Origin: a virus
Strand: one strand, 5' to 3'
Length of the DNA: 9,409 nt
Virus genome (UHGV): UHGV-0216968
Below are positions 2,087 to 9,409 of the stretch, piece after piece. The notes under the pieces are model-generated. The model worked only from the letters and a program-made list of their open reading frames with translations, was not told the DNA's origin and did not search any database. A program made the position numbers and the translations under genes. The stretch's first letter is position 1. Each line of letters opens with the position of its first letter.

Positions 2087-2122
2087 GCAGAAAGAAAAGC
2101 GTAATCAATGAGATAAAAAACA

Positions 2123-2156
2123 GTGGGTACCGTTTTAAAACGGTGGGTACTGTTTT
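2123..2156. promoter_or_regulatory. operator-like site upstream of alpA
   Basis: Direct repeat GTGGGTACCGTTTT (2123-2136) and GTGGGTACTGTTTT (2143-2156) enclosing a perfect 16-bp palindrome ACCGTTTTAAAACGGT (2129-2144), about 65 bp upstream of the alpA start. Confidence 0.4.
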
Positions 2157-2428: not shown

Positions 2429-2578
2429 TGGTGTGAGGCGTAACGCGATGAACATAACAAAAAGCGCCCCGTTGCCGGAGCGCCCTTGCGAACAATTAAC
2501 CTGCTGCGAAAAAAATGGATCAGTGCAGGGGAATTATATCAACCGTGTGGCGAAGCGCCACAATTGCCGGATAACGGG

Positions 2579-2607
2579 CAAAACAAAGGCGACCGGGGGC
2601 GGTCGCC
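2579..2607 (-). terminator. rho-independent terminator on the minus strand
   Basis: Perfect 8-bp inverted repeat GGCGACCG-ggg-CGGTCGCC (2588-2607). On the minus strand it is followed by UUUGUUUUG (plus-strand 2579-2587). Lies about 68 bp downstream of the minus-strand small ORF. Confidence 0.45.
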
Positions 2608-2674
2608 AATGGATATACACTAAACTTGAACGCATCACCAACAATGCCACATTTGCGGCTGGTGGGCAATGTGA

Positions 2675-2854
2675 TCAGTCAGATTTGGTTCGTTCCAAGG
2701 TTTGCAACGAGAGCTTTTTCCTGTGCTCTTTAAGGAATTTCTCAAGAGCAAACGAACAAGGTGCGAATCTTTCTGATTCATGTTCATGCGCTATATTTTT
2801 GCGTCGTCTCTTACGAGTTGGCGATGGTGTTTTGGTTGATTCTGTGTCGCTCAT
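2675..2854 (-). CDS. hypothetical small basic protein, 59 aa (MSDTESTKTPSPTRKRRRKNIAHEHESERFAPCSFALEKFLKEHRKKLSLQTLERTKSD)
   Basis: Hand-translated minus-strand ORF, below the size cut-off of the supplied ORF track. ATG at 2854-2852 with AGGA 7 nt upstream, TGA at 2677-2675. Sits 57 bp downstream of the RHH gene on the same strand and before a minus-strand terminator. No family recognised. Confidence 0.3.
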   Translation of the reverse strand: MSDTESTKTPSPTRKRRRKNIAHEHESERFAPCSFALEKFLKEHRKKLSLQTLERTKSD

Positions 2855-2911
2855 GGTGCTGTCCTGTAAAGCAATGCGCCTGCGTTCCTCAAACTATGGC
2901 GCTGATAGTGG

Positions 2912-3217
2912 CTATTCCTGCTCTTTGACCTTGCGTCGCTGGAGTTCTTCACGCGCGACGGTGACGAGTTGCCCGATCTCCTCGGCGGCTTTGACTCCGA
3001 TTTTTTCCACCTGCGCTAGGGCATCGAGCGAAGAAACCAGGAGGTTTTCTCCGCTTCCTTCTGCCTGGCGGCGGGCGATTTCACCGCGCATGGCGGTTAC
3101 TATGAATCCGGCGTTGCTTTCACCGTCCAGTTTTACGGATTCCATGCCTTCAATAACATCATGCGGGATCCGAGCTGTCAGTGATTGTGATTTTGCGTTT
3201 TTTGAACCTGTAGCCAT
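2912..3217 (-). CDS. ribbon-helix-helix-type DNA-binding protein, candidate island regulator, 101 aa
   Basis: ATG at 3217-3215 with GAGAGG about 7 nt upstream. The ORF-track start at 3232 is a TTG that contains this Shine-Dalgarno. N-terminal SLTARIPHDVIEGMESVKL fits the strand-helix pattern of Arc/CopG/MetJ RHH domains. Transcribed divergently from the downstream operon. Confidence 0.6.
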   Translation of the reverse strand: MATGSKNAKSQSLTARIPHDVIEGMESVKLDGESNAGFIVTAMRGEIARRQAEGSGENLLVSSLDALAQVEKIGVKAAEEIGQLVTVAREELQRRKVKEQE

Positions 3218-3238
3218 CTGTAATCCTCTCAATGAAAG

Positions 3239-3315
3239 TGTAAGACAATATACACATAAAAAGTCTTACATAAAAGCATTGACATGTAAGCCACCTATAA
3301 ATAAAGTTACTTACA
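3239..3315. promoter_or_regulatory. divergent promoter/operator region
   Basis: Rightward promoter TTGACA (3279-3284), 17 bp, TAAAGT (3302-3307). Leftward -10 candidate TATATT on the minus strand (3247-3252). Four copies of TGTAAG/CTTACA (3239-3244, 3265-3270, 3285-3290, 3310-3315) including the inverted repeat TGTAAGAC (3239-3246) / GTCTTACA (3263-3270). Hairpin CACCTTG-ttaatg-CAAGGTG at 3314-3333 in the rightward leader. Confidence 0.45.
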
Positions 3316-3413
3316 CCTTGTTAATGCAAGGTGCAGAAACGACGAAACCCCGCACTGTAGGAGCAGTAACGGGGCTTCTAACCACCAACGATAGCAAGAT
3401 TATCGAGGTAGCT

Positions 3414-3620
3414 ATGTTAAATCATACCACACACCCGCAAGGGCGGGACTCGCACAACCTGAATAAATACATCTGGCGTTTTATCGCCCTGAGCACGGCA
3501 CAACCGCGCGTGATTCACATCGTGGCCACCAGCGAACAGGAAGCCCGTCAACAATCACCGGCTGGCTGCGTGATGGTATTCGCCGCCCGTATTCGTCAGG
3601 AGGTGCACCATGTGCAATAA
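3414..3620 (+). CDS. hypothetical small protein, 68 aa
   Basis: ATG at 3414 with GAGG at 3405-3408. It is the C-terminal part of the implausible 395-aa track ORF. First gene after the rightward promoter and its stop overlaps the next start. Product unknown. Confidence 0.4.
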   Translation: MLNHTTHPQGRDSHNLNKYIWRFIALSTAQPRVIHIVATSEQEARQQSPAGCVMVFAARIRQEVHHVQ

Positions 3621-4071: not shown

Positions 4072-4371
4072 ATGAAACAGAAAATTTCTGGCTTTACTGC
4101 CAGCGGCCTCCCTCGGCCTGAAATCTGCCCCGGCGATATTTACCGGGATAAATACGGCAGCACGGTAATGATTAAAGGTGTTGCCGGACGGTGCGTTACT
4201 TACCGCCGTGAAGGTTATGAATATGACTGCGTGATGCCTGTTTATCAGTTCCGGCGTGATTTTTCTCTGGTACAGAACGCAACACGCGGTAAGCCCACCA
4301 GTTGGGAAAAAGCACGGGAAAATATTAAGAAAATAAAAAGCATGCTCAGCGCATCCAGAGGTAAAAAATGA
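4072..4371 (+). CDS. hypothetical protein, 99 aa
   Basis: ATG at 4072. Its stop overlaps the start of the replication gene (ATGA at 4368-4371). Basic C-terminus. No recognisable family. Confidence 0.5.
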   Translation: MKQKISGFTASGLPRPEICPGDIYRDKYGSTVMIKGVAGRCVTYRREGYEYDCVMPVYQFRRDFSLVQNATRGKPTSWEKARENIKKIKSMLSASRGKK

Positions 4372-5774
4372 AACTGGCACCGAACGTAAAACTGTTACCG
4401 AAAGATAAACACACTGAGGCGGTTATTTTTGCGGGTGATAATGCTCACTCCTTTGCAGAACATTACATGATTGCACAGGCCAAAAAAGCAGGCGATCCCA
4501 TCCCTCCGGTTTACCTGGGCCGTTATCAGTTAAGCGAACTGGACAATTTACAGATTGTTGATGAAGGACGATACAGAGCAAAGGTCATACGCGCCGGAAA
4601 CCTGGACGATATGCAGATGCTGACCATTGCCACCAAACTGGCGATCGCAGGTGTCCGGGAAGCGCGGTTACTTTCAGAGAATTTCGAACTACTGGAAGAC
4701 TGGAGCGAGCAACTACCGCGCCTTAAAGAAACCTGGGAACGTGGGGAAAGCCTGGTCATGAATGGTGGAAAGCGAAAAATCACACTTCCCATCTCATGGG
4801 GTTCTGAGGGATTCGACGCGCAGCAAAGCTACGTAATTAAGGGGCTTATTCCGGCTGAATCATTATGCAGCACCTACGGGGCCAGCGGCTCTTATAAATC
4901 GTTCCTGGCTATTTCCTGGTCGTGCCATGTTGCCACAGGTATGGCATGGGGAGGCCGCAGGGTCAGTAAGGGCGCGGTTATCTATATAGCTGGTGAAGGC
5001 AGCATGGGCGTAAAACGCCGCGTTAAGGCGTGGGAGATAACCCACGACAAGGTGGTTACAGATTTGTGCATCATTAACGCGCCTGTTTTCCCTGCATCGC
5101 CTGACTATGTGGAGCAGGTTATCAGAACTGCCGGACTTGTTAAGAGCAGAACGGGCGAAAATGTGCGGCTGATTGTGATAGACACGCTGGCCCGTTGCTT
5201 TGGTGGGAATGATGAAAATGATTCCCGTGATATGGGCGCATTTATCCAGGGGTGTGACGCGATAAAGCAGGCCACAGGGGCCACGGTGCTGGTGGTTCAC
5301 CATTCCGGCAAGGATGAAACAAAGGGGGCGCGTGGTTCCAGCGCATTCCGTGCCGCACTGGATGCAGAGTACCGAATCAGCCGGGAAAATTCAGACGTTA
5401 CAGCACTGGTGGCGGCGTGTACGAAGATGAAGGACGCAGAGGAGCCAAAAGAAAGCGCATACGACCTTAAAAGCGTGGAGGTGTTTACCGATACAGATGG
5501 CGAAGAGATTGTGTCCATGGTGGTGATTGACGTTCCCCGCGCCCCTGCTGAACTGGAACGCATCGAGGAGGCCGGGAACAAGACGGAAAATCACACGGCT
5601 TTATGGGGTTGTATCCGGTCACGTATACAGCATGGTGATAAATGCACGATCCCGCTGCTACGTGATGACATGAAAAAGCTGGGATATGACACAAAACACC
5701 TTAAACGATGGTTAGCCAAACTGGAAAAAGACGGCGTGATTTGCGTCGATGGGGATGATGTTCACCCACTGTAA
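4368..5774 (+). CDS. replication protein: RecA-superfamily RepA/DnaB-like ATPase, 468 aa
   Basis: ATG at 4368 with AGAGG at 4357-4361. Contains a P-loop-like YGASGSYKS, Walker B-like RLIVIDTL and a VLVVHHSGKD motif characteristic of RepA-type replicative helicases. The C-terminal ~60 aa look like a small DNA-binding domain. Iterons follow immediately downstream. Confidence 0.85.
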   Translation: MKLAPNVKLLPKDKHTEAVIFAGDNAHSFAEHYMIAQAKKAGDPIPPVYLGRYQLSELDNLQIVDEGRYRAKVIRAGNLDDMQMLTIATKLAIAGVREARLLSENFELLEDWSEQLPRLKETWERGESLVMNGGKRKITLPISWGSEGFDAQQSYVIKGLIPAESLCSTYGASGSYKSFLAISWSCHVATGMAWGGRRVSKGAVIYIAGEGSMGVKRRVKAWEITHDKVVTDLCIINAPVFPASPDYVEQVIRTAGLVKSRTGENVRLIVIDTLARCFGGNDENDSRDMGAFIQGCDAIKQATGATVLVVHHSGKDETKGARGSSAFRAALDAEYRISRENSDVTALVAACTKMKDAEEPKESAYDLKSVEVFTDTDGEEIVSMVVIDVPRAPAELERIEEAGNKTENHTALWGCIRSRIQHGDKCTIPLLRDDMKKLGYDTKHLKRWLAKLEKDGVICVDGDDVHPL

Positions 5775-5973
5775 AAAGTGGGCGTTAAAAGTGGGAATAG
5801 TGGGTAATTTAACTGGAATTTAACAAAATCGCCCACTTTCCCACATGTATACATCCCAAAAAGTGGGCACTAAAAAAATTCTTATGAAACAGTACGATAT
5901 AAAACCACAAAATCCCAGGTGGGACGAAGTGGGAAACCATGAAAAGTGGGTAGAAAAAGTGGGCACAGGTGGG
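5765..5973. repeat. iteron cluster, putative origin of replication
   Basis: At least 12 copies of GTGGG (consensus about AAGTGGG): plus-strand at 5778, 5791, 5800, 5863, 5919, 5929, 5946, 5959 and 5969, inverted at 5765-5769, 5832-5836 and 5840-5844. They flank an AT-rich stretch at about 5868-5915. Confidence 0.6.
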
Positions 5974-5976
5974 CGC

Positions 5977-6228
5977 ATGACCAGAAAAACCAGAGATAAG
6001 ACAGCACCAAAATATCGCGCATTAGACATGACAGAGCACGCCTTAAAGGTGGCAATCAGAACGATAGACCGCCACGCCGGAGAAGGATACGCGAAAGCAC
6101 ATCCCGAACTGATAAGCGCATTCATGACCACGACGGCGGCAAATTTTGCCACGCTGACAGAGCGGGAGATTGCCGAAGCGGAACAGGTAACAACAATCAA
6201 CGTTAAAACCGGAGAGGTGGAATCATGA
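5977..6228 (+). CDS. hypothetical protein, 83 aa
   Basis: ATG at 5977 preferred over the track start at 5845, because 5845-5976 is occupied by the iterons. Stop overlaps the SSB start (ATGA at 6225-6228). Confidence 0.4.
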   Translation: MTRKTRDKTAPKYRALDMTEHALKVAIRTIDRHAGEGYAKAHPELISAFMTTTAANFATLTEREIAEAEQVTTINVKTGEVES

Positions 6229-6647
6229 CAGCACAGATAGCGGCTTACGGGCGGCTGGTGGCTGACCCGCAGTTAAAGACCACCAGCAAAGGGACACAAA
6301 TGGCGATGGCGAGTATGGCGGTTCCCCTGCCGTGCAGCCAGGCAGATGACGGAACGGCGACGATGTGGTTATCTGTCCTGGCGTTTGGCAGACAGGCCGA
6401 CGCACTGGCAAAACACCACAAAGGCGAACTCCTGAGCGTGGCGGGTAACATGCAGGTGAGCCAGTGGACAGGCCAGAACGGCGAAACGCGGCAGGGCTGG
6501 CAGGTTATCGCAGACAGTGTAATCAGTGCCAGAACGGCGCGACCGGGCGGCAAAAAAGGTCAACAGGGCCAGGCCACTGACGCACTGAACAGGGCAAAAC
6601 AACAGTCAGGGAATGATGATCCGTACAGGGATGACATACCGTTTTAA
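6225..6647 (+). CDS. ssb: single-stranded DNA-binding protein, 140 aa
   Basis: GGAGAGGTGG (6211-6220) precedes the ATG at 6225. OB-fold-like N-terminal region (AYGRLVADPQLKTTSKG..., WLSVLAFGRQADAL...). Gly/Gln-rich linker and a C-terminal acidic tail DDPYRDDIPF, ending in the DDIPF-type motif that is the hallmark of bacterial and phage SSBs. Confidence 0.8.
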   Translation: MTAQIAAYGRLVADPQLKTTSKGTQMAMASMAVPLPCSQADDGTATMWLSVLAFGRQADALAKHHKGELLSVAGNMQVSQWTGQNGETRQGWQVIADSVISARTARPGGKKGQQGQATDALNRAKQQSGNDDPYRDDIPF

Positions 6648-6655
6648 GCAACGAG

Positions 6656-6687
6656 TGACAGAAGCCGGAGCAATCCGGCTTCTGTCA
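6656..6687 (+). other. very stable hairpin, possible terminator or attenuator between replication and capsid modules
   Basis: Perfect 14-bp stem TGACAGAAGCCGGA (6656-6669) / TCCGGCTTCTGTCA (6674-6687) with loop GCAA, 9 nt after the SSB stop. No U-tract follows. A second imperfect hairpin at 6717-6734 is preceded by A8 (6709-6716), so it is terminator-like on the minus strand. Confidence 0.4.
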
Positions 6688-6828
6688 GTTGAGTCCGTCA
6701 CACCACGCAAAAAAAAGGCCGGAATGTTCCGACCCCTTCATCACCAAAGAGAATAATTTATGTCTTTGAACTTGTAACGCTGCACAGAATGACACGTAAC
6801 GCCGGATAAATAAACGAAGATTGAAACT

Positions 6829-6858
6829 TTGCACACTATTGCATAGCAATGCATAAAG
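6829..6858. promoter_or_regulatory. phased TTGCA(C/T) repeats upstream of the capsid gene, candidate late promoter/activator site
   Basis: TTGCAC (6829-6834), TTGCAT (6839-6844) and ATGCAT (6849-6854) at exact 10-bp spacing, including the inverted repeat TGCAT-agca-ATGCA (6840-6853). Located about 65 bp upstream of the capsid gene start in an AT-rich intergenic region. Confidence 0.3.
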
Positions 6859-6919
6859 ATGCCGAACAAGGCTGATGATAAGATTAACGCGACACTTTTA
6901 CTAAGTATTAAGAGGTTGT

Positions 6920-7960
6920 ATGAGTGATTTATATTCGCCAGCTATGTTAATACAGGTTGTTAATGCCGAAGATATTCAATGGCAGATTAATTCTTTATTT
7001 ATAAACCTTTTTTTTAAGCGAGTCGTTACATTTGAGACGCGGGATATTGCGCTTGATATTATTGACGATCCAGACATCCCGATGGCTGCATTTTGTTCCC
7101 CTATGGTTGGTAGCAAAGTCTCACGCGATGAAGGCTACGAATCGAAAGTAATTCGTCCTGGCTACATGAAGCCAAAAAGTAGTATCGATCCAAATAAAAT
7201 AGCCGTTCGTCAACCAGGCGTATCACCGGAACAATTCAATGCATATTCATCACGCAGTTTCAAAATAAAGCGAGCGTTAGTAAGACAAGCGCAGGCAATT
7301 CGTGCGCGTATTGAGTGGCTTGCTGTTCAGGCGGTTACAACGGGGAAAAATATCATTGAAGGCGATGGAATTGAACGTTATGAACTGGACTGGAATATAA
7401 AACCACAAAATATTATCACGCAGTCCGGCGGTACGGAGTGGAGCGGTAGAGATTTATCAACATTTGATCCAAACGATGACATCGAAGAGTACGCAGAAAT
7501 CAGCGAAGGTACTACAAATATCATCGTAATGGGCCGCAACGTATGGAAAAAATACCGCGCCTTTAAAGCAGTAAAAGATTGCCTTGATACTCGACGGGGA
7601 TCTAATTCCGTTCTTGAAACGGCCCTGAAAAATCTTGGGGATTCTGTAAGCTTCAAGGGTTACGTTGGCGATGTTGCTATTGTGGTATATAGCGGACGTT
7701 ATACCGACGAGGACGGAACTGAAAGATATTTCCTTGATCCTGATTTGATGGTGCTTGGCAACACATCATTACAGGGCATCGTTGCCTACGGTGGCATTCA
7801 GGATCCTGAGTTAATCAGAATGGGGCTTACTAAAGCCGAACTTGCGCCGAAAAATTACATCGTACCAGGTGATCCGGCTATTGAGTACGTACAAACGCAC
7901 TCTGCACCACAGCCAATACCGGCCCGCATCAATCGTTTTGTTACCGTTCGCATTGGTTAA
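6920..7960 (+). CDS. major capsid protein, lambda gpE family, 346 aa
   Basis: AGAGG at 6911-6915 precedes the ATG. Blocks shared with lambda gpE as I recall it: NIITQSGGTEWSGRD, FDPNDDIEEYA, NIIVMG, FKAVKDCLDTRRGSNSVLETA, GDVAIVVYSG, MVLGNT, GDPA. Length is close to lambda E (341 aa). Confidence 0.92.
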   Translation: MSDLYSPAMLIQVVNAEDIQWQINSLFINLFFKRVVTFETRDIALDIIDDPDIPMAAFCSPMVGSKVSRDEGYESKVIRPGYMKPKSSIDPNKIAVRQPGVSPEQFNAYSSRSFKIKRALVRQAQAIRARIEWLAVQAVTTGKNIIEGDGIERYELDWNIKPQNIITQSGGTEWSGRDLSTFDPNDDIEEYAEISEGTTNIIVMGRNVWKKYRAFKAVKDCLDTRRGSNSVLETALKNLGDSVSFKGYVGDVAIVVYSGRYTDEDGTERYFLDPDLMVLGNTSLQGIVAYGGIQDPELIRMGLTKAELAPKNYIVPGDPAIEYVQTHSAPQPIPARINRFVTVRIG

Positions 7961-7969
7961 GGGGGAGCA

Positions 7970-8311
7970 ATGGCTACTCATTACACTGAACTCATGGCTG
8001 GCACTGAAGCACTGGTTACTACGTTGGGGATATTTTCAGCTAATAAAGGGGTAATTCCTGCATTTACGCCACTGATGCAAGAAGATGCAACTGGTGCACT
8101 GGTGGTATGGGATGGAACGAGCGCAGGCAAAGCTGTTTATGTTTCCGCTGTACAAATCGATACAGCGACAAAAACGCAGGCTCAGGTTTATAAAACCGGC
8201 GTCTTAAATGTTGATGCTCTGAACTGGCCTGAATCTGTAACACAACTATCAGCAAAAGTTGCTGCGTTTGTTGGCTCAGGTATTTCTGTTCAGCCGCTGG
8301 CACGTGTGTGA
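7970..8311 (+). CDS. head decoration protein, lambda gpD family, 113 aa
   Basis: Strong Shine-Dalgarno AAGGGGGAG before the ATG at 7970. Matches lambda gpD blocks: THY, TPLM, VVWDGT, YKTG...WPE, AAF.G.GIS. Size is close to lambda D (110 aa). Confidence 0.85.
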   Translation: MATHYTELMAGTEALVTTLGIFSANKGVIPAFTPLMQEDATGALVVWDGTSAGKAVYVSAVQIDTATKTQAQVYKTGVLNVDALNWPESVTQLSAKVAAFVGSGISVQPLARV

Positions 8312-8320
8312 GGTACGAGA

Positions 8321-8665
8321 ATGATTGAAAGAGATAGTCAGCTACGAGAGCTATTAGATATCGATGATAAAATGCGCTTAAGCGAGCGTCTTGTCGATAT
8401 GGATCAGGTAGTGGAGCTTACAACCCTTAGCCGTCGCACATTGCTAAACCTTGAGGCTCGCGGAGAGTTCCCCGAACGCGTACAGGTTACGAAAGGCCGC
8501 AAGGCATGGTATTTAAGCGAAGTTGTTGCGTGGATTAACAACATTCCGCGCGCATCAAATTATTGCCTTGTTCCCACCCCCGAAAAACCTGATGCGGCGT
8601 TATGCCTCAAGATTGAACGCGCCAGGCGTAATGCCCTGAAAGGGCGCAATAAGTTGATTGGTTGA
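8321..8665 (+). CDS. second AlpA/excisionase-like HTH protein, 114 aa
   Basis: GAGGT at 8311-8315 precedes the ATG. Central region VVELTTLSRRTLLNLEARGEFPERVQVTKGRKAWYLSEVVAWI is a MerR/AlpA-type HTH. Stop lies 26 bp before the cosQ-like sequence. Confidence 0.7.
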   Translation: MIERDSQLRELLDIDDKMRLSERLVDMDQVVELTTLSRRTLLNLEARGEFPERVQVTKGRKAWYLSEVVAWINNIPRASNYCLVPTPEKPDAALCLKIERARRNALKGRNKLIG

Positions 8666-8691
8666 TGAAATTAGGGCCCGTTCTGGCTGGC

Positions 8692-8756
8692 GGGTCCTTT
8701 CCGGCGATCCGGCAGGCTACGGGGCGGCGACCTCGCGGGTTTTCGCTATTTATGAG
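8692..8756 (+). other. lambda-type cohesive end site (cosQ-like, cosN, proximal cosB)
   Basis: GGGCGGCGACCT at 8722-8733 equals the lambda 12-nt cohesive end. Upstream CGGGTCCTTTCCGGCGATCCGGCAGGCTACG matches the lambda right end with 3 substitutions. Downstream CGCGGGTTTTCGCTATTTATGA matches lambda left-end nt 13-34. Comparison is from memory of the lambda sequence. Confidence 0.8.
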
Positions 8757-8866
8757 CCTTTTTCGGGTGCTGGTGGTGGTTTTGTTGTTCGCTCTATCTC
8801 TATGAATAAAAAGGAAAAGATAAAGCCAATACACCAACCTGAAACATTACTTAAGTGGGGATATTG

Positions 8867-9409
8867 ATGAAATCGCACCTGATGAACAAAAAAAACATGG
8901 CGCAAAGCTGCCGTGTAAGTGCGACAGCGTTCGACAAGTGGGGAGTGACTCCCGTTGAACGTAAAGGCCGCGAGGCGTTTTATGATGTTGCCAGCGTAAT
9001 AGACAATCGGGTTAGCAATGCAATTAACCAGATTACAGACGACAAAGGCGAGATTGATGATGATGAACTCCTACGAGTCAGGATCAGATTGCTGACAGCA
9101 CAGGCAGAGGCGCAGGAGCTTAAAAACGAGCGCGAACGCGGCGACGTTATTGATACAGCGTTTTGTATATACGTGCTTTCAAAATTGGCGAGTCAGATTT
9201 CTTCAATCATGGACAGCCTGCCGCTTGCCATGACAAGGAAGTTTCCCGACATGAAGCCGTCTATGCTGGATGGACTGAAAAAAGAAGTTATCAGAGCCTG
9301 TAACGCATGCGCAAAACTTGACGAAAACATACCGCTGATGCTGTCCGATTATCTGATGGAAACTGCCGGAAACGTACCGGATAAGTTGCAGCCGAATAAA
9401 GATAAGTAA
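8867..9409 (+). CDS. terminase small subunit, lambda Nu1 family, 180 aa
   Basis: ATG at 8867; alternative starts are GTG 8855 and ATG 8882. The N-terminus (MNKKNMAQSCRVSATAFDKWG...FYDVASVIDNR) parallels the Nu1 winged HTH (MEVNKKQLADIFGASIRTIQNWQ...LYDSAAVIKWY). The C-terminal half is strongly Nu1-like (RLLTAQAEAQELKNERERGDVIDTAFCIYVLSKLASQISSIMDSLPLAMTRKFPDMK). Stop falls at the window end. Confidence 0.88.
   Translation: MKSHLMNKKNMAQSCRVSATAFDKWGVTPVERKGREAFYDVASVIDNRVSNAINQITDDKGEIDDDELLRVRIRLLTAQAEAQELKNERERGDVIDTAFCIYVLSKLASQISSIMDSLPLAMTRKFPDMKPSMLDGLKKEVIRACNACAKLDENIPLMLSDYLMETAGNVPDKLQPNKDK

What the first reader, a model, noticed from the sequence alone, without database searches (positions are those of the whole stretch)
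5765..5973. Iteron-type origin between the helicase gene and the SSB operon
At least twelve GTGGG-containing repeats in both orientations flank an AT-rich segment immediately 3' of the RepA-like gene and partly overlap its last codons. This is the arrangement of replication initiator followed by iterons and a DNA-unwinding element seen in PICI and plasmid origins. The same GTGGG core also occurs twice in the palindrome upstream of alpA (2123-2156), hinting at cross-talk between replication and regulation.
Basis: seen in the sequence. Interest (0 to 1): 0.5.

Follow-up and report, generated by a model that had tools for sequence, protein, structure and literature searches.

The report
Replication origin of a phage satellite island
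The repeat cluster is real and is almost certainly the replication origin of a small phage-parasitic island of E. coli, a known type of origin, bound by the DNA-reading tail of the helicase encoded just upstream.

Summary
Twelve GTGGG words lie in 5765-5973, against about 0.4 expected. Eleven fill the 202-nt gap between the RepA-type helicase gene (4368-5774) and a small gene-SSB operon (5977-). The consensus is AAAAGTGGGMR.

The layout is three direct copies, a head-to-head pair around a TA-rich palindrome, a 51-nt AT-rich stretch, then five direct copies.

Relatives in E. coli and in about 70 other Enterobacterales loci keep this layout but change the core in concert: GTGGG, GTGAG, GTGGGGG or TGCGGC. 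The class follows the last 68 residues of Rep, a predicted winged helix. It does not follow the helicase body or the neighbouring genes. His444 goes with GTGGG and Asn with GTGAG.

Sister islands with a different initiator carry different repeats at the same spot. In the prototype island EcCICFT073 that spot is an experimentally proven origin.

So this is a PICI-type iteron origin, a new member of a known kind. No experiment was done here.

Two details fail. The copy inside the rep codons does not co-vary, so it is not an iteron. The GTGGG pair upstream of alpA varies independently of Rep, so the proposed replication-regulation cross-talk is unsupported.

The parts
4368..5774 (+). rep: 468-aa initiator-helicase. 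It has an N-domain (aa 1-~130), an RSF1010 RepA-like SF4/RecA-fold helicase core (aa ~146-320) and a C-terminal winged helix (aa ~401-468).
5568..5771 (+). Part of rep encoding the C-terminal winged-helix domain (aa 401-468). The predicted recognition helix is aa 445-454, preceded by K443-H444.
5765..5769 (-). GTGGG word inside the last rep codons (His-Pro-Leu). It is not an iteron.
   Evidence: It stays CCCAC in L007 and L009, whose iterons are all GTGAG, and is absent from L004, L005 and L008.
5774..5806 (+). Left array of three direct iterons, with cores at 5778, 5791 and 5800.
   Evidence: The positions are conserved and the core changes in concert in 10 E. coli loci.
5804..5831 (.). First AT-rich spacer (75% A+T).
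   Evidence: A spacer is present at this position in relatives.
5830..5848 (-). Two inverted iterons (cores CCCAC at 5832 and 5840). They face iteron 6 across the central palindrome.
   Evidence: (I1, I4, I9).
5845..5854 (.). Central TA-rich palindrome ATGTATACAT between the head-to-head iterons. It is a conserved non-iteron element.
   Evidence: TGTATA is invariant in 10 E. coli loci. It lies at a fixed offset (53-68 nt after the stop codon) in 22 of the 23 loci that have the word, among 71 scanned; the one exception is at 106 nt. TATATA-like variants occupy the position in several representative loci of the other iteron classes. It is also present in the Klebsiella element.
5859..5869 (+). 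Iteron 6 (core at 5863), the direct copy facing the inverted pair.
5868..5918 (.). Main AT-rich segment (71% A+T), the likely DNA-unwinding element.
   Evidence: The 40-mer at 5871 is among the six least stable in the window. An AT-rich block is conserved in relatives.
5915..5975 (+). Right array of five direct iterons (cores at 5919, 5929, 5946, 5959, 5969). The last one (AGGTGGG, 5967-5973) also serves as the Shine-Dalgarno sequence of the next gene.
   Evidence: direct reading of the sequence.
5977..6228 (+). 83-aa gene of unknown function, the first gene downstream of the ori. It is conserved whatever the initiator type.
   Evidence: PHROG 1231. It is 75% identical to the gene following the EcCICFT073 ori and 86-96% identical across iteron classes.
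6225..6647 (+). Single-stranded-DNA-binding protein gene.
   Evidence: Pfam SSB, E 1.6e-15.

Best explanation
The region 5775-5976 is the vegetative replication origin of a roughly 10-kb phage-inducible chromosomal island (PICI) integrated beside tRNA-Pro. Eleven short iterons (consensus AAAAGTGGGMR) are the binding sites for the C-terminal winged-helix domain of the Rep protein encoded immediately upstream. Rep is an RSF1010 RepA-like (SF4, RecA-fold) hexameric helicase that carries its own origin-recognition domain. Once the island is induced and Rep is made, Rep molecules occupy the left array, the head-to-head pair around the TA-rich palindrome, and the right array. The AT-rich DNA between them melts and the helicase loads itself there without a separate loader. 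Priming and synthesis are then taken over by host enzymes, helped by the island's own SSB. What is shown here: the repeats exist, they are hugely enriched, their layout is conserved across genera, their sequence co-varies with the Rep winged helix, and the site is syntenic with a proven ori. What is inferred: physical binding, melting at the AT-rich segment, self-loading, and host-dependent priming.
For: (1) Enrichment is extreme: 11 copies in 202 nt against 0.42 expected. (2) Ten E. coli loci align column by column. 'AAAAGTG-G' is invariant at the iteron positions, while core position 4 is G at essentially all sites in some loci and A at essentially all sites in others. (3) Iteron class follows the last 68 aa of Rep and nothing else. 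In L004, Rep 1-400 is only 73% identical to the window, but the recognition segment TKHLKRWLAK is identical and the iteron words are identical (GTGGGC/A/T, 5/4/2). In L008, Rep 1-400 is 99% identical, the segment reads VKNMRRWLAK and the iterons are GTGAG. The DUF4222 protein and the downstream 83-aa protein do not track the class. (4) L091 (MKHFRRWLYK, GTGGGG) and L007/L009 (MKNFRRWLYK, GTGAGG) differ by one residue and one base. (5) Across 71 loci from other genera, KNF goes with GTGAG (21 loci, mean 8.3 copies), KHF with GTGGG (8 loci, 7.4), KKF with GTGGGGG (35 loci) and RKSF with TGCGGC (6 loci, 7.3). (6) Predictions made before looking: two KH proteins gave 10 and 8 GTGGG against 1 GTGAG each; two KN proteins gave GTGAG majorities, but mixed. 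(7) The C-domain is confidently predicted as a winged helix, with residue 444 at the N-terminus of the recognition helix. (8) Module swap: islands with the same flanking genes but a P4-alpha-like primase carry 9 TGTTCACC repeats at the same spot, and these are P4's annotated ori type 1 repeats. EcCICFT073 carries 11 GGTAGA repeats there. (9) That EcCICFT073 rep-ori segment drives Rep- and ori-dependent plasmid maintenance (PMC6092414, Fig 2b text). The same paper describes Gram-negative PICI origins as two iteron sets flanking an AT-rich region 3' of rep. (10) SaPI Reps use a C-terminal winged helix to read 6-12 penta- or hexanucleotide iterons placed just after rep, around an AT-rich centre (PMC9371898). 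(11) A homologous rep with iterons sits on a 16,971-bp circular Klebsiella record deposited as a plasmid, which carries integrase, capsid and terminase genes. (12) There is no DnaA box or IHF consensus in the region, which fits a self-contained initiator.
Against: No experiment was done: binding, melting and replication are all inferred. The co-variation is partly phylogenetically non-independent, for example all 21 KNF loci are Xenorhabdus or close to it; E. coli does provide a second, separate KN/GTGAG set. The two blind KN cases had mixed GTGAG/GTGGG arrays, so the one-residue, one-base rule is a tendency and not a strict code. A few homologues (L073, L086, L089, L090) show no obvious repeats downstream. 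The full-length Rep model is poor in the helicase core and in the linker (pLDDT 66). No primase is identifiable in this island, so the priming step is unexplained.
Confidence: 0.85

Rival explanations
1. The repeats are mainly a transcriptional operator or promoter array for the downstream 83-aa gene-SSB operon. They would be bound by Rep or another regulator to control late gene expression, and would have no origin function.
For: The last iteron overlaps the Shine-Dalgarno sequence and lies 4 nt from the ATG at 5977. There is no terminator on the + strand between rep and the operon, so Rep bound here could modulate read-through or translation. Iteron-binding initiators of plasmids commonly autoregulate (general knowledge).
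Against: No sigma-70-like promoter is found in 5600-6300. The repeats follow the initiator and not the downstream genes: the same 83-aa gene and SSB follow TGTTCACC repeats in L003 and GGTAGA repeats in CFT073. The GTG[G/A]G arrays persist where the downstream genes differ (L008, L009, L092, L094). The syntenic CFT073 region is a proven ori. A regulatory side-role is not excluded and is compatible with the main explanation.
Confidence: 0.07
2. The repeats are shared binding sites that couple replication to alpA regulation, because the same GTGGG core occurs upstream of alpA.
For: GTGGGTAC occurs twice, 20 nt apart, at 2123 and 2143 just upstream of alpA. AGTGGGTA also occurs in iterons 3 and 9.
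Against: In L002 the Rep C-domain is 100% identical and the iterons are GTGGG, yet the alpA-upstream element reads GTGAGTAC at both copies. L003 has the same GTGAGTAC element with an unrelated initiator and TGTTCACC iterons. L001 has the same Rep and ori with a different int-alpA module that lacks the element. The element therefore travels with the int-alpA module. It also lacks the AAAA 5' flank of the iterons.
Confidence: 0.03
3. The cluster is a packaging (cos/pac) site, an integrase arm-site array, or a chance low-complexity patch.
For: Short repeats in both orientations also occur at cos and att sites.
Against: Chance is excluded. The integrase and att lie 4-5 kb away beside tRNA-Pro. The repeats swap with the initiator and co-vary with its winged helix, which no packaging or integration model predicts. 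The terminase small-subunit gene lies at 8855 onwards. By analogy with lambda-type systems a cos site would be expected near it, but none was mapped here.
Confidence: 0.02

Closest known systems
Replication origins of Gram-negative PICIs, prototype EcCICFT073 (Fillol-Salom et al. 2018, ISME J, PMC6092414)
   Same: The island family and gene order are the same: int, alpA, icd-like, DUF4222, initiator, ori, small gene (75% identical), SSB, lambda-E-like capsid, decoration protein. The ori lies in the same intergenic gap, with two iteron sets around AT-rich DNA. The N-terminal ~130 aa of the two initiators are 45% identical.
   Different: The CFT073 initiator is a 584-aa 'DNA primase family protein' and not a RepA-type helicase. 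Apart from the N-domain the two proteins are unrelated. Its iterons are GGTAGAYA, not AAAAGTGGG. Function was tested for CFT073 only.
SaPI Rep/ori system of Staphylococcus aureus (Ubeda et al.; Qiao et al. 2022, PMC9371898)
   Same: A self-loading helicase-initiator carries a C-terminal winged helix. That domain reads 6-12 penta- or hexanucleotide iterons placed immediately after the rep ORF, half on each side of an AT-rich centre, with opposed orientations.
   Different: SaPI Reps are AAA+ (SF3/MCM-like) motors with 3'-5' polarity. The motor here is a RecA-fold SF4 RepA/DnaB-like core. There is no sequence relationship and the host lineage is different.
Satellite phage P4 alpha protein with ori/crr
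   Same: One polypeptide combines helicase and C-terminal origin recognition. Short iterons in both orientations lie just 3' of the gene (crr at 4291-4590 after alpha at 4636-6969). A sister island (L003) uses exactly the P4 octamer TGTTCACC at the position of the window's ori.
   Different: P4 alpha has a primase domain, annotated 'DNA primase'. From general knowledge it has an SF3-type helicase and needs two separated cis sites, ori and crr. The window's Rep has no primase domain, and its iterons form one compact 200-nt unit.
IncQ plasmid RSF1010 replicon (RepA helicase, RepB primase, RepC initiator)
   Different: From general knowledge, in RSF1010 origin recognition is done by a separate protein (RepC) on 20-22-bp iterons and priming by RepB at the ssi sites. 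Here recognition is fused to the helicase, the iteron cores are 5 nt, and no RepB or RepC homologue was found among the island's ORFs.
Classical iteron plasmids (pPS10, R6K, RK2, F; Rep_3-type initiators)
   Same: The logic is the same: repeated initiator-binding sites beside an AT-rich unwinding element, read by winged-helix domains.
   Different: There is no Rep_3 family initiator and no DnaA box. The cores are about 11 nt overall with irregular 8-17-nt spacing, rather than 17-22-bp iterons in helical phase. The initiator is itself the helicase.

Membership tests
PICI-type replication origin | Lies immediately 3' of the island's replication initiator gene | tested here: met
   The rep stop codon is at 5772-5774 and the first iteron core at 5778.
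PICI-type replication origin | Two sets of short iterons in both orientations | tested here: met
   There are 6 copies left and 5 right of the main AT-rich block, 9 on the + strand and 2 on the - strand.
PICI-type replication origin | AT-rich, easily melted region between the iteron sets | tested here: met
   5868-5918 is 71% A+T, and the 40-mer at 5871 is among the six least stable in the window.
PICI-type replication origin | Iterons are specific to the cognate Rep (C-terminal DNA-binding domain) | tested here: met
   Tested by co-variation only. The class follows the last 68 aa of Rep in 14 close loci and 71 distant ones, and the repeats are swapped together with the initiator. Binding itself was not measured.
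PICI-type replication origin | Host element is a PICI (integrase, alpA, rightward operon, about 10 kb, own att site, helper-related packaging genes) | tested here: met
   The gene order is the same as in EcCICFT073. Inducibility by a helper phage was not tested.
PICI-type replication origin | Supports Rep-dependent autonomous replication | not testable with these tools
   This needs cloning in a conditional vector, as was done for EcCICFT073 (PMC6092414). The only hint is a homologous rep-ori on a circular 17-kb Klebsiella record.
Classical iteron plasmid origin (Rep_3 type) | Initiator of the Rep_3/RepA-pi-TrfA family with tandem winged helices | tested here: not met
   Pfam finds only AAA_25 in Rep. 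The model shows a single winged helix fused to a helicase.
Classical iteron plasmid origin (Rep_3 type) | DnaA box(es) next to the iterons | tested here: not met
   No TTATNCACA match with up to one mismatch in 5700-6000.
Classical iteron plasmid origin (Rep_3 type) | Iterons of 17-22 bp in regular helical phase | tested here: not met
   The core is 5 nt within a consensus of about 11 nt. Spacings are 13, 9, 32, 8, 23, 56, 10, 17, 13 and 10 nt.
IncQ (RSF1010) replicon | RepA-type hexameric helicase | tested here: met
IncQ (RSF1010) replicon | Separate RepC initiator and RepB primase | tested here: not met
   No such domains were found in any island ORF. Origin recognition is fused to the helicase.
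P4 alpha/ori-crr replicon | TGTTCACC type 1 iterons and a primase-helicase alpha protein | tested here: not met
   The window's array is GTGGG-based and Rep has no primase domain. The sister island L003 does meet both features.

The most novel reading that the evidence does not exclude
The RepA-helicase replicons of enterobacterial PICIs may form a natural specificity series, in which one or two residues at the start of the winged-helix recognition helix set which iteron core is read. Window position 444 would be the main one: His for GTGGG, Asn for GTGAG; Lys-Lys-Phe for GTGGGGG; Arg-Lys-Ser-Phe for TGCGGC. The C-domain and the ori would then be exchanged together as a cassette between otherwise near-identical helicases, as in L008 against the window. 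A second, class-independent element, the TA-rich palindrome between the head-to-head iterons, would mark the true site of helicase double-hexamer assembly or first melting. If this is right, a single H444N change plus G-to-A changes in the iterons should re-target the replicon.
Probability: 0.45. Interest if true: 0.45.

Novelty: new member of a known kind. Interest (0 to 1): 0.3.

Why it matters
The result places the origin of this island precisely. It also shows that one family of E. coli satellites uses at least three interchangeable initiator-origin cassettes at the same locus: a RepA helicase with GTGGG-type iterons, a P4-alpha-like primase with TGTTCACC, and the CFT073 type with GGTAGA.

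For people who engineer PICIs as delivery vehicles, or who study satellite-helper conflicts, the exact iteron map and the predicted recognition residue give a direct handle on copy-number control and replicon specificity.

It does not change how such origins are understood. The arrangement was described for Gram-negative PICIs in 2018 and for SaPIs before that.

Tried and rejected
- DnaA-box and IHF-site scans found nothing in or beside the region.
- The sigma-70 promoter scan of 5600-6300 found nothing. The only terminator-like hit is weak and on the minus strand.
- Rfam found only the tRNA-Pro.
- The ori has no match in the phage collection.
- A literature search for the P4 octamer returned only primer sequences. 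The P4 GenBank annotation was used instead.
- The 127-aa ORF at 5845-6228, which would read through the right iteron array, was rejected. It is an in-frame upstream extension of the annotated 83-aa gene, and 1-nt indels in L006-L010 break the extension.
- The att sequence published for yejM-site PICIs (TTTGTAGTTATACG) is not in the window.
- Iteron diversification does not look driven by incompatibility between co-resident islands. Several Xenorhabdus genomes carry two replicons of the same GTGAG class.

Full report
**What the window is.** The window starts with a tRNA-Pro(GGG) gene at 195-271. The genes that follow are:
- an integrase (481-1722)
- an AlpA-type regulator (2222-2428)
- an Icd-like segment
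- a DUF4222 gene (4072-4371)
- a 468-aa 'helicase RepA family' gene (4368-5774)
- a 202-nt gap
- an 83-aa gene (5977-6228)
- SSB (6225-6647)
- a lambda-E-like major capsid gene (6920-7960)
- a gpD-like decoration gene (7970-8311)
- a second AlpA-like gene (8321-8665)
- a Nu1-like small terminase gene (8855 onwards)

Near-identical islands of about 10 kb sit between yejM/tRNA-Pro and yejO in E. coli genomes. The prototype Gram-negative PICI, EcCICFT073, has the same gene order. The window is therefore an E. coli-type phage-inducible chromosomal island.

**The observation.** GTGGG occurs 31 times in the window, against a shuffle mean of 16.3. Twelve of these fall in 5765-5973.
- Eleven lie in the 202-nt intergenic stretch, where the outside rate predicts 0.42 (P about 1e-12). 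No other 202-nt window holds more than four.
- Aligned on the core, the copies give the consensus AAAAGTGGGMR.
- The layout is: three direct copies (cores at 5778, 5791, 5800); a 75% A+T spacer; two inverted copies (5832, 5840); the perfect palindrome ATGTATACAT (5845-5854); one direct copy (5863); a 51-nt stretch of 71% A+T (5868-5918); then five direct copies (5919, 5929, 5946, 5959, 5969).
- The 40-mer starting at 5871 is among the six least stable in the window.
- The last iteron, AGGTGGG, doubles as the ribosome-binding site of the 5977 gene.

**Comparative anatomy in E. coli.** The ori region has homologues in 648 of 5426 complete E. coli genomes, down to about 70% identity. I took ten loci and aligned them.
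- The iteron positions are conserved column by column.
- 'AAAAGTG-G' is invariant, while the fourth core base is G at almost every position in some loci and A at almost every position in others.
- The base after the core also shifts as a block: GTGGGC/A in the window, L001, L002 and L004; GTGGGG in L005 and L006; GTGAGG in L007, L009 and L010; GTGAGT/A/C in L008.
- Such concerted change at eleven separate sites is what is expected of sites read by one co-evolving protein.
- The GTGGG inside the rep codons (5765) does not take part. L007 and L009 keep CCCAC there although their iterons are GTGAG, so it is coding sequence and not an iteron.

**Which protein reads them.** I compared four proteins or segments across 14 loci: DUF4222, Rep residues 1-400, the last 68 Rep residues, and the downstream 83-aa protein. 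Only the Rep C-terminus tracks the iteron class.
- L004: Rep 1-400 is only 73% identical to the window, but the segment TKHLKRWLAK is identical and the iteron word counts are the same.
- L008: Rep 1-400 is 99% identical, the segment reads VKNMRRWLAK, and the iterons are GTGAG. The C-domain and the ori have therefore been exchanged together.
- L091 (MKHFRRWLYK, GTGGGG) and L007/L009 (MKNFRRWLYK, GTGAGG) differ by one residue and one base.

**Wider sample.** A scan of one genome per species returned 80 loci with Rep homologues of 49-63% identity. They come from Xenorhabdus, Pantoea, Serratia, Pectobacterium, Morganella, Citrobacter, Kluyvera and others. In nearly all of them the 260 nt after the stop codon carry a multi-copy short word, and the word follows the residues preceding the conserved R-W-L:

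| Residues before R-W-L | Iteron word | Loci | Mean copies |
|---|---|---|---|
| K-N-F | GTGAG | 21 | 8.3 (0.1 GTGGG) |
| K-H-F | GTGGG | 8 | 7.4 |
| K-K-F | GTGGGGG | 35 | 4.2 |
| R-K-S-F | TGCGGC | 6 | 7.3 |

The layout is the same in each class, including a TA-rich element between the head-to-head iterons.

I then made four predictions from protein sequence alone. The two K-H proteins had 10 and 8 GTGGG against one GTGAG each. The two K-N proteins had GTGAG majorities, but mixed arrays (4:3 and 5:2). The rule is therefore a strong tendency and not a strict code. Part of the correlation is also phylogenetically non-independent.

**Module swaps and the proven homologue.** Islands with the same integrase, alpA, DUF4222, 83-aa gene, SSB and capsid genes can carry a P4-alpha-like primase in place of the RepA helicase. 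In these, the gap after the initiator holds nine copies of TGTTCACC in two sets around AT-rich DNA. That octamer is annotated in the P4 genome as the 'ori type 1 repeat', and P4's crr likewise lies just 3' of alpha.

EcCICFT073 has a third initiator, and eleven of the locus's twelve GGTAGA words fall in the same gap. Its next gene is 75% identical to the window's 5977 gene. Fillol-Salom et al. (PMC6092414) showed that the EcCICFT073 rep-ori segment maintains a temperature-sensitive plasmid, and that this requires both rep and ori. They describe Gram-negative PICI origins as two iteron sets flanking an AT-rich region 3' of rep.

SaPI Reps work the same way, with a C-terminal winged helix and 6-12 short iterons (PMC9371898). 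Finally, a homologous rep with AAGTGCGGCA iterons lies on a 16,971-bp circular Klebsiella record deposited as a plasmid. That record is otherwise a capsid-forming satellite.

**Mechanism proposed.**
1. After induction, Rep is expressed from the rightward operon.
2. Its winged helices bind the eleven iterons.
3. The opposed copies around the TA palindrome, together with the flanking arrays, bring several Rep molecules around the AT-rich DNA.
4. The DNA melts and the SF4 helicase rings load without a loader.
5. SSB from the island coats the single strands, and host primase and polymerase take over.

Steps 2-5 are inferred from the homologous systems. No DnaA box or IHF site is present, which fits a host-initiator-independent start. 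How priming happens is open, because this replicon type has no recognisable primase.

**The alpA-upstream element.** GTGGGTACYGTTTT is repeated at 2123 and 2143 within a near-palindrome. L002 has an identical Rep C-domain and GTGGG iterons, yet both copies there read GTGAGTAC. The same is true in L003, which has an unrelated initiator. L001 has the same Rep and ori and lacks the element. It belongs to the int-alpA module, so the cross-talk idea is not supported.

**Verdict.** The finding is real and its main interpretation is right. This is a PICI-type iteron origin with its cognate helicase-initiator, a new member of a known kind. The modest added value is threefold: the precise iteron map, the evidence that specificity resides in a swappable C-terminal winged helix with a candidate residue-base contact, and a conserved class-independent central element.

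Noticed in passing
window 2119-2156 (compare L002 and L003 8140-8180): The alpA-upstream element ACAGTGGGTACCGTTTTAAAACGGTGGGTACTGT contains a 20-nt-spaced direct repeat inside a near-palindrome. In sister islands both copies read GTGAGTAC instead of GTGGGTAC. This is a concerted two-site change, which suggests an operator for an unidentified regulator of the int-alpA module. It follows a clear intrinsic terminator at 2056-2086.
   Followed up: partly
window 4368-4760 (Rep aa 1-~130): The N-terminal domain of the RepA-type Rep is 45% identical to the N-terminus of the otherwise unrelated EcCICFT073 Pri-Rep ('DNA primase family protein'). The same domain is thus fused to two different replication motors. 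It is confidently modelled as an alpha/beta fold (pLDDT 80-93) but has no informative structural match. Its function is unknown.
   Followed up: partly
window 5845-5854 and the equivalent position in L004-L010, L031-L085, L091-L095: A TA-rich palindrome (TGTATACA, TGTATATA or TATATA-like) always sits between the head-to-head iteron pair, whatever the iteron class or genus. It could be a class-independent site for melting, helicase assembly or a host factor.
   Followed up: partly
window 6920-9409; L002 12884-15769: The island encodes a lambda-E-like major capsid protein, a gpD-like decoration protein and a Nu1-like small terminase. The complete ~10-kb sister island has no annotated portal, protease or large terminase. 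EcCICFT073 also has annotated capsid and decoration genes, although the 2018 paper says it lacks capsid morphogenesis genes. The role of these genes was not examined.
   Followed up: no
L003 12438-12724; L096 6997-7284: The same island backbone carries at least three alternative initiator-origin cassettes: RepA helicase with GTGGG-type iterons, P4-alpha-like primase with TGTTCACC, and the CFT073 type with GGTAGAYA. All are inserted between DUF4222 and the 83-aa gene.
   Followed up: yes
L095 (CP018459.1, Klebsiella pneumoniae, 16,971 bp, circular): A record deposited as a plasmid is in fact a satellite-like element with integrase, capsid, terminase, tape-measure and head-tail adaptor genes. 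It carries a Rep homologue and AAGTGCGGCA iterons. It may be an excised, replicating island captured by the assembly.
   Followed up: partly
window 5759-5766: A single copy of the P4 type 1 octamer TGTTCACC lies in the last rep codons (Val-His-Pro). An 8-mer is expected about 0.3 times in this window, so it is most likely coincidence.
   Followed up: no
window 2433-3620: The 395-aa ORF listed here is probably not one gene. Only its last ~50-90 residues match Icd-like or repressor families. Sister islands annotate short YlcI/YnfO genes on the opposite strand plus a ~68-aa Icd-like gene in this stretch.
   Followed up: no
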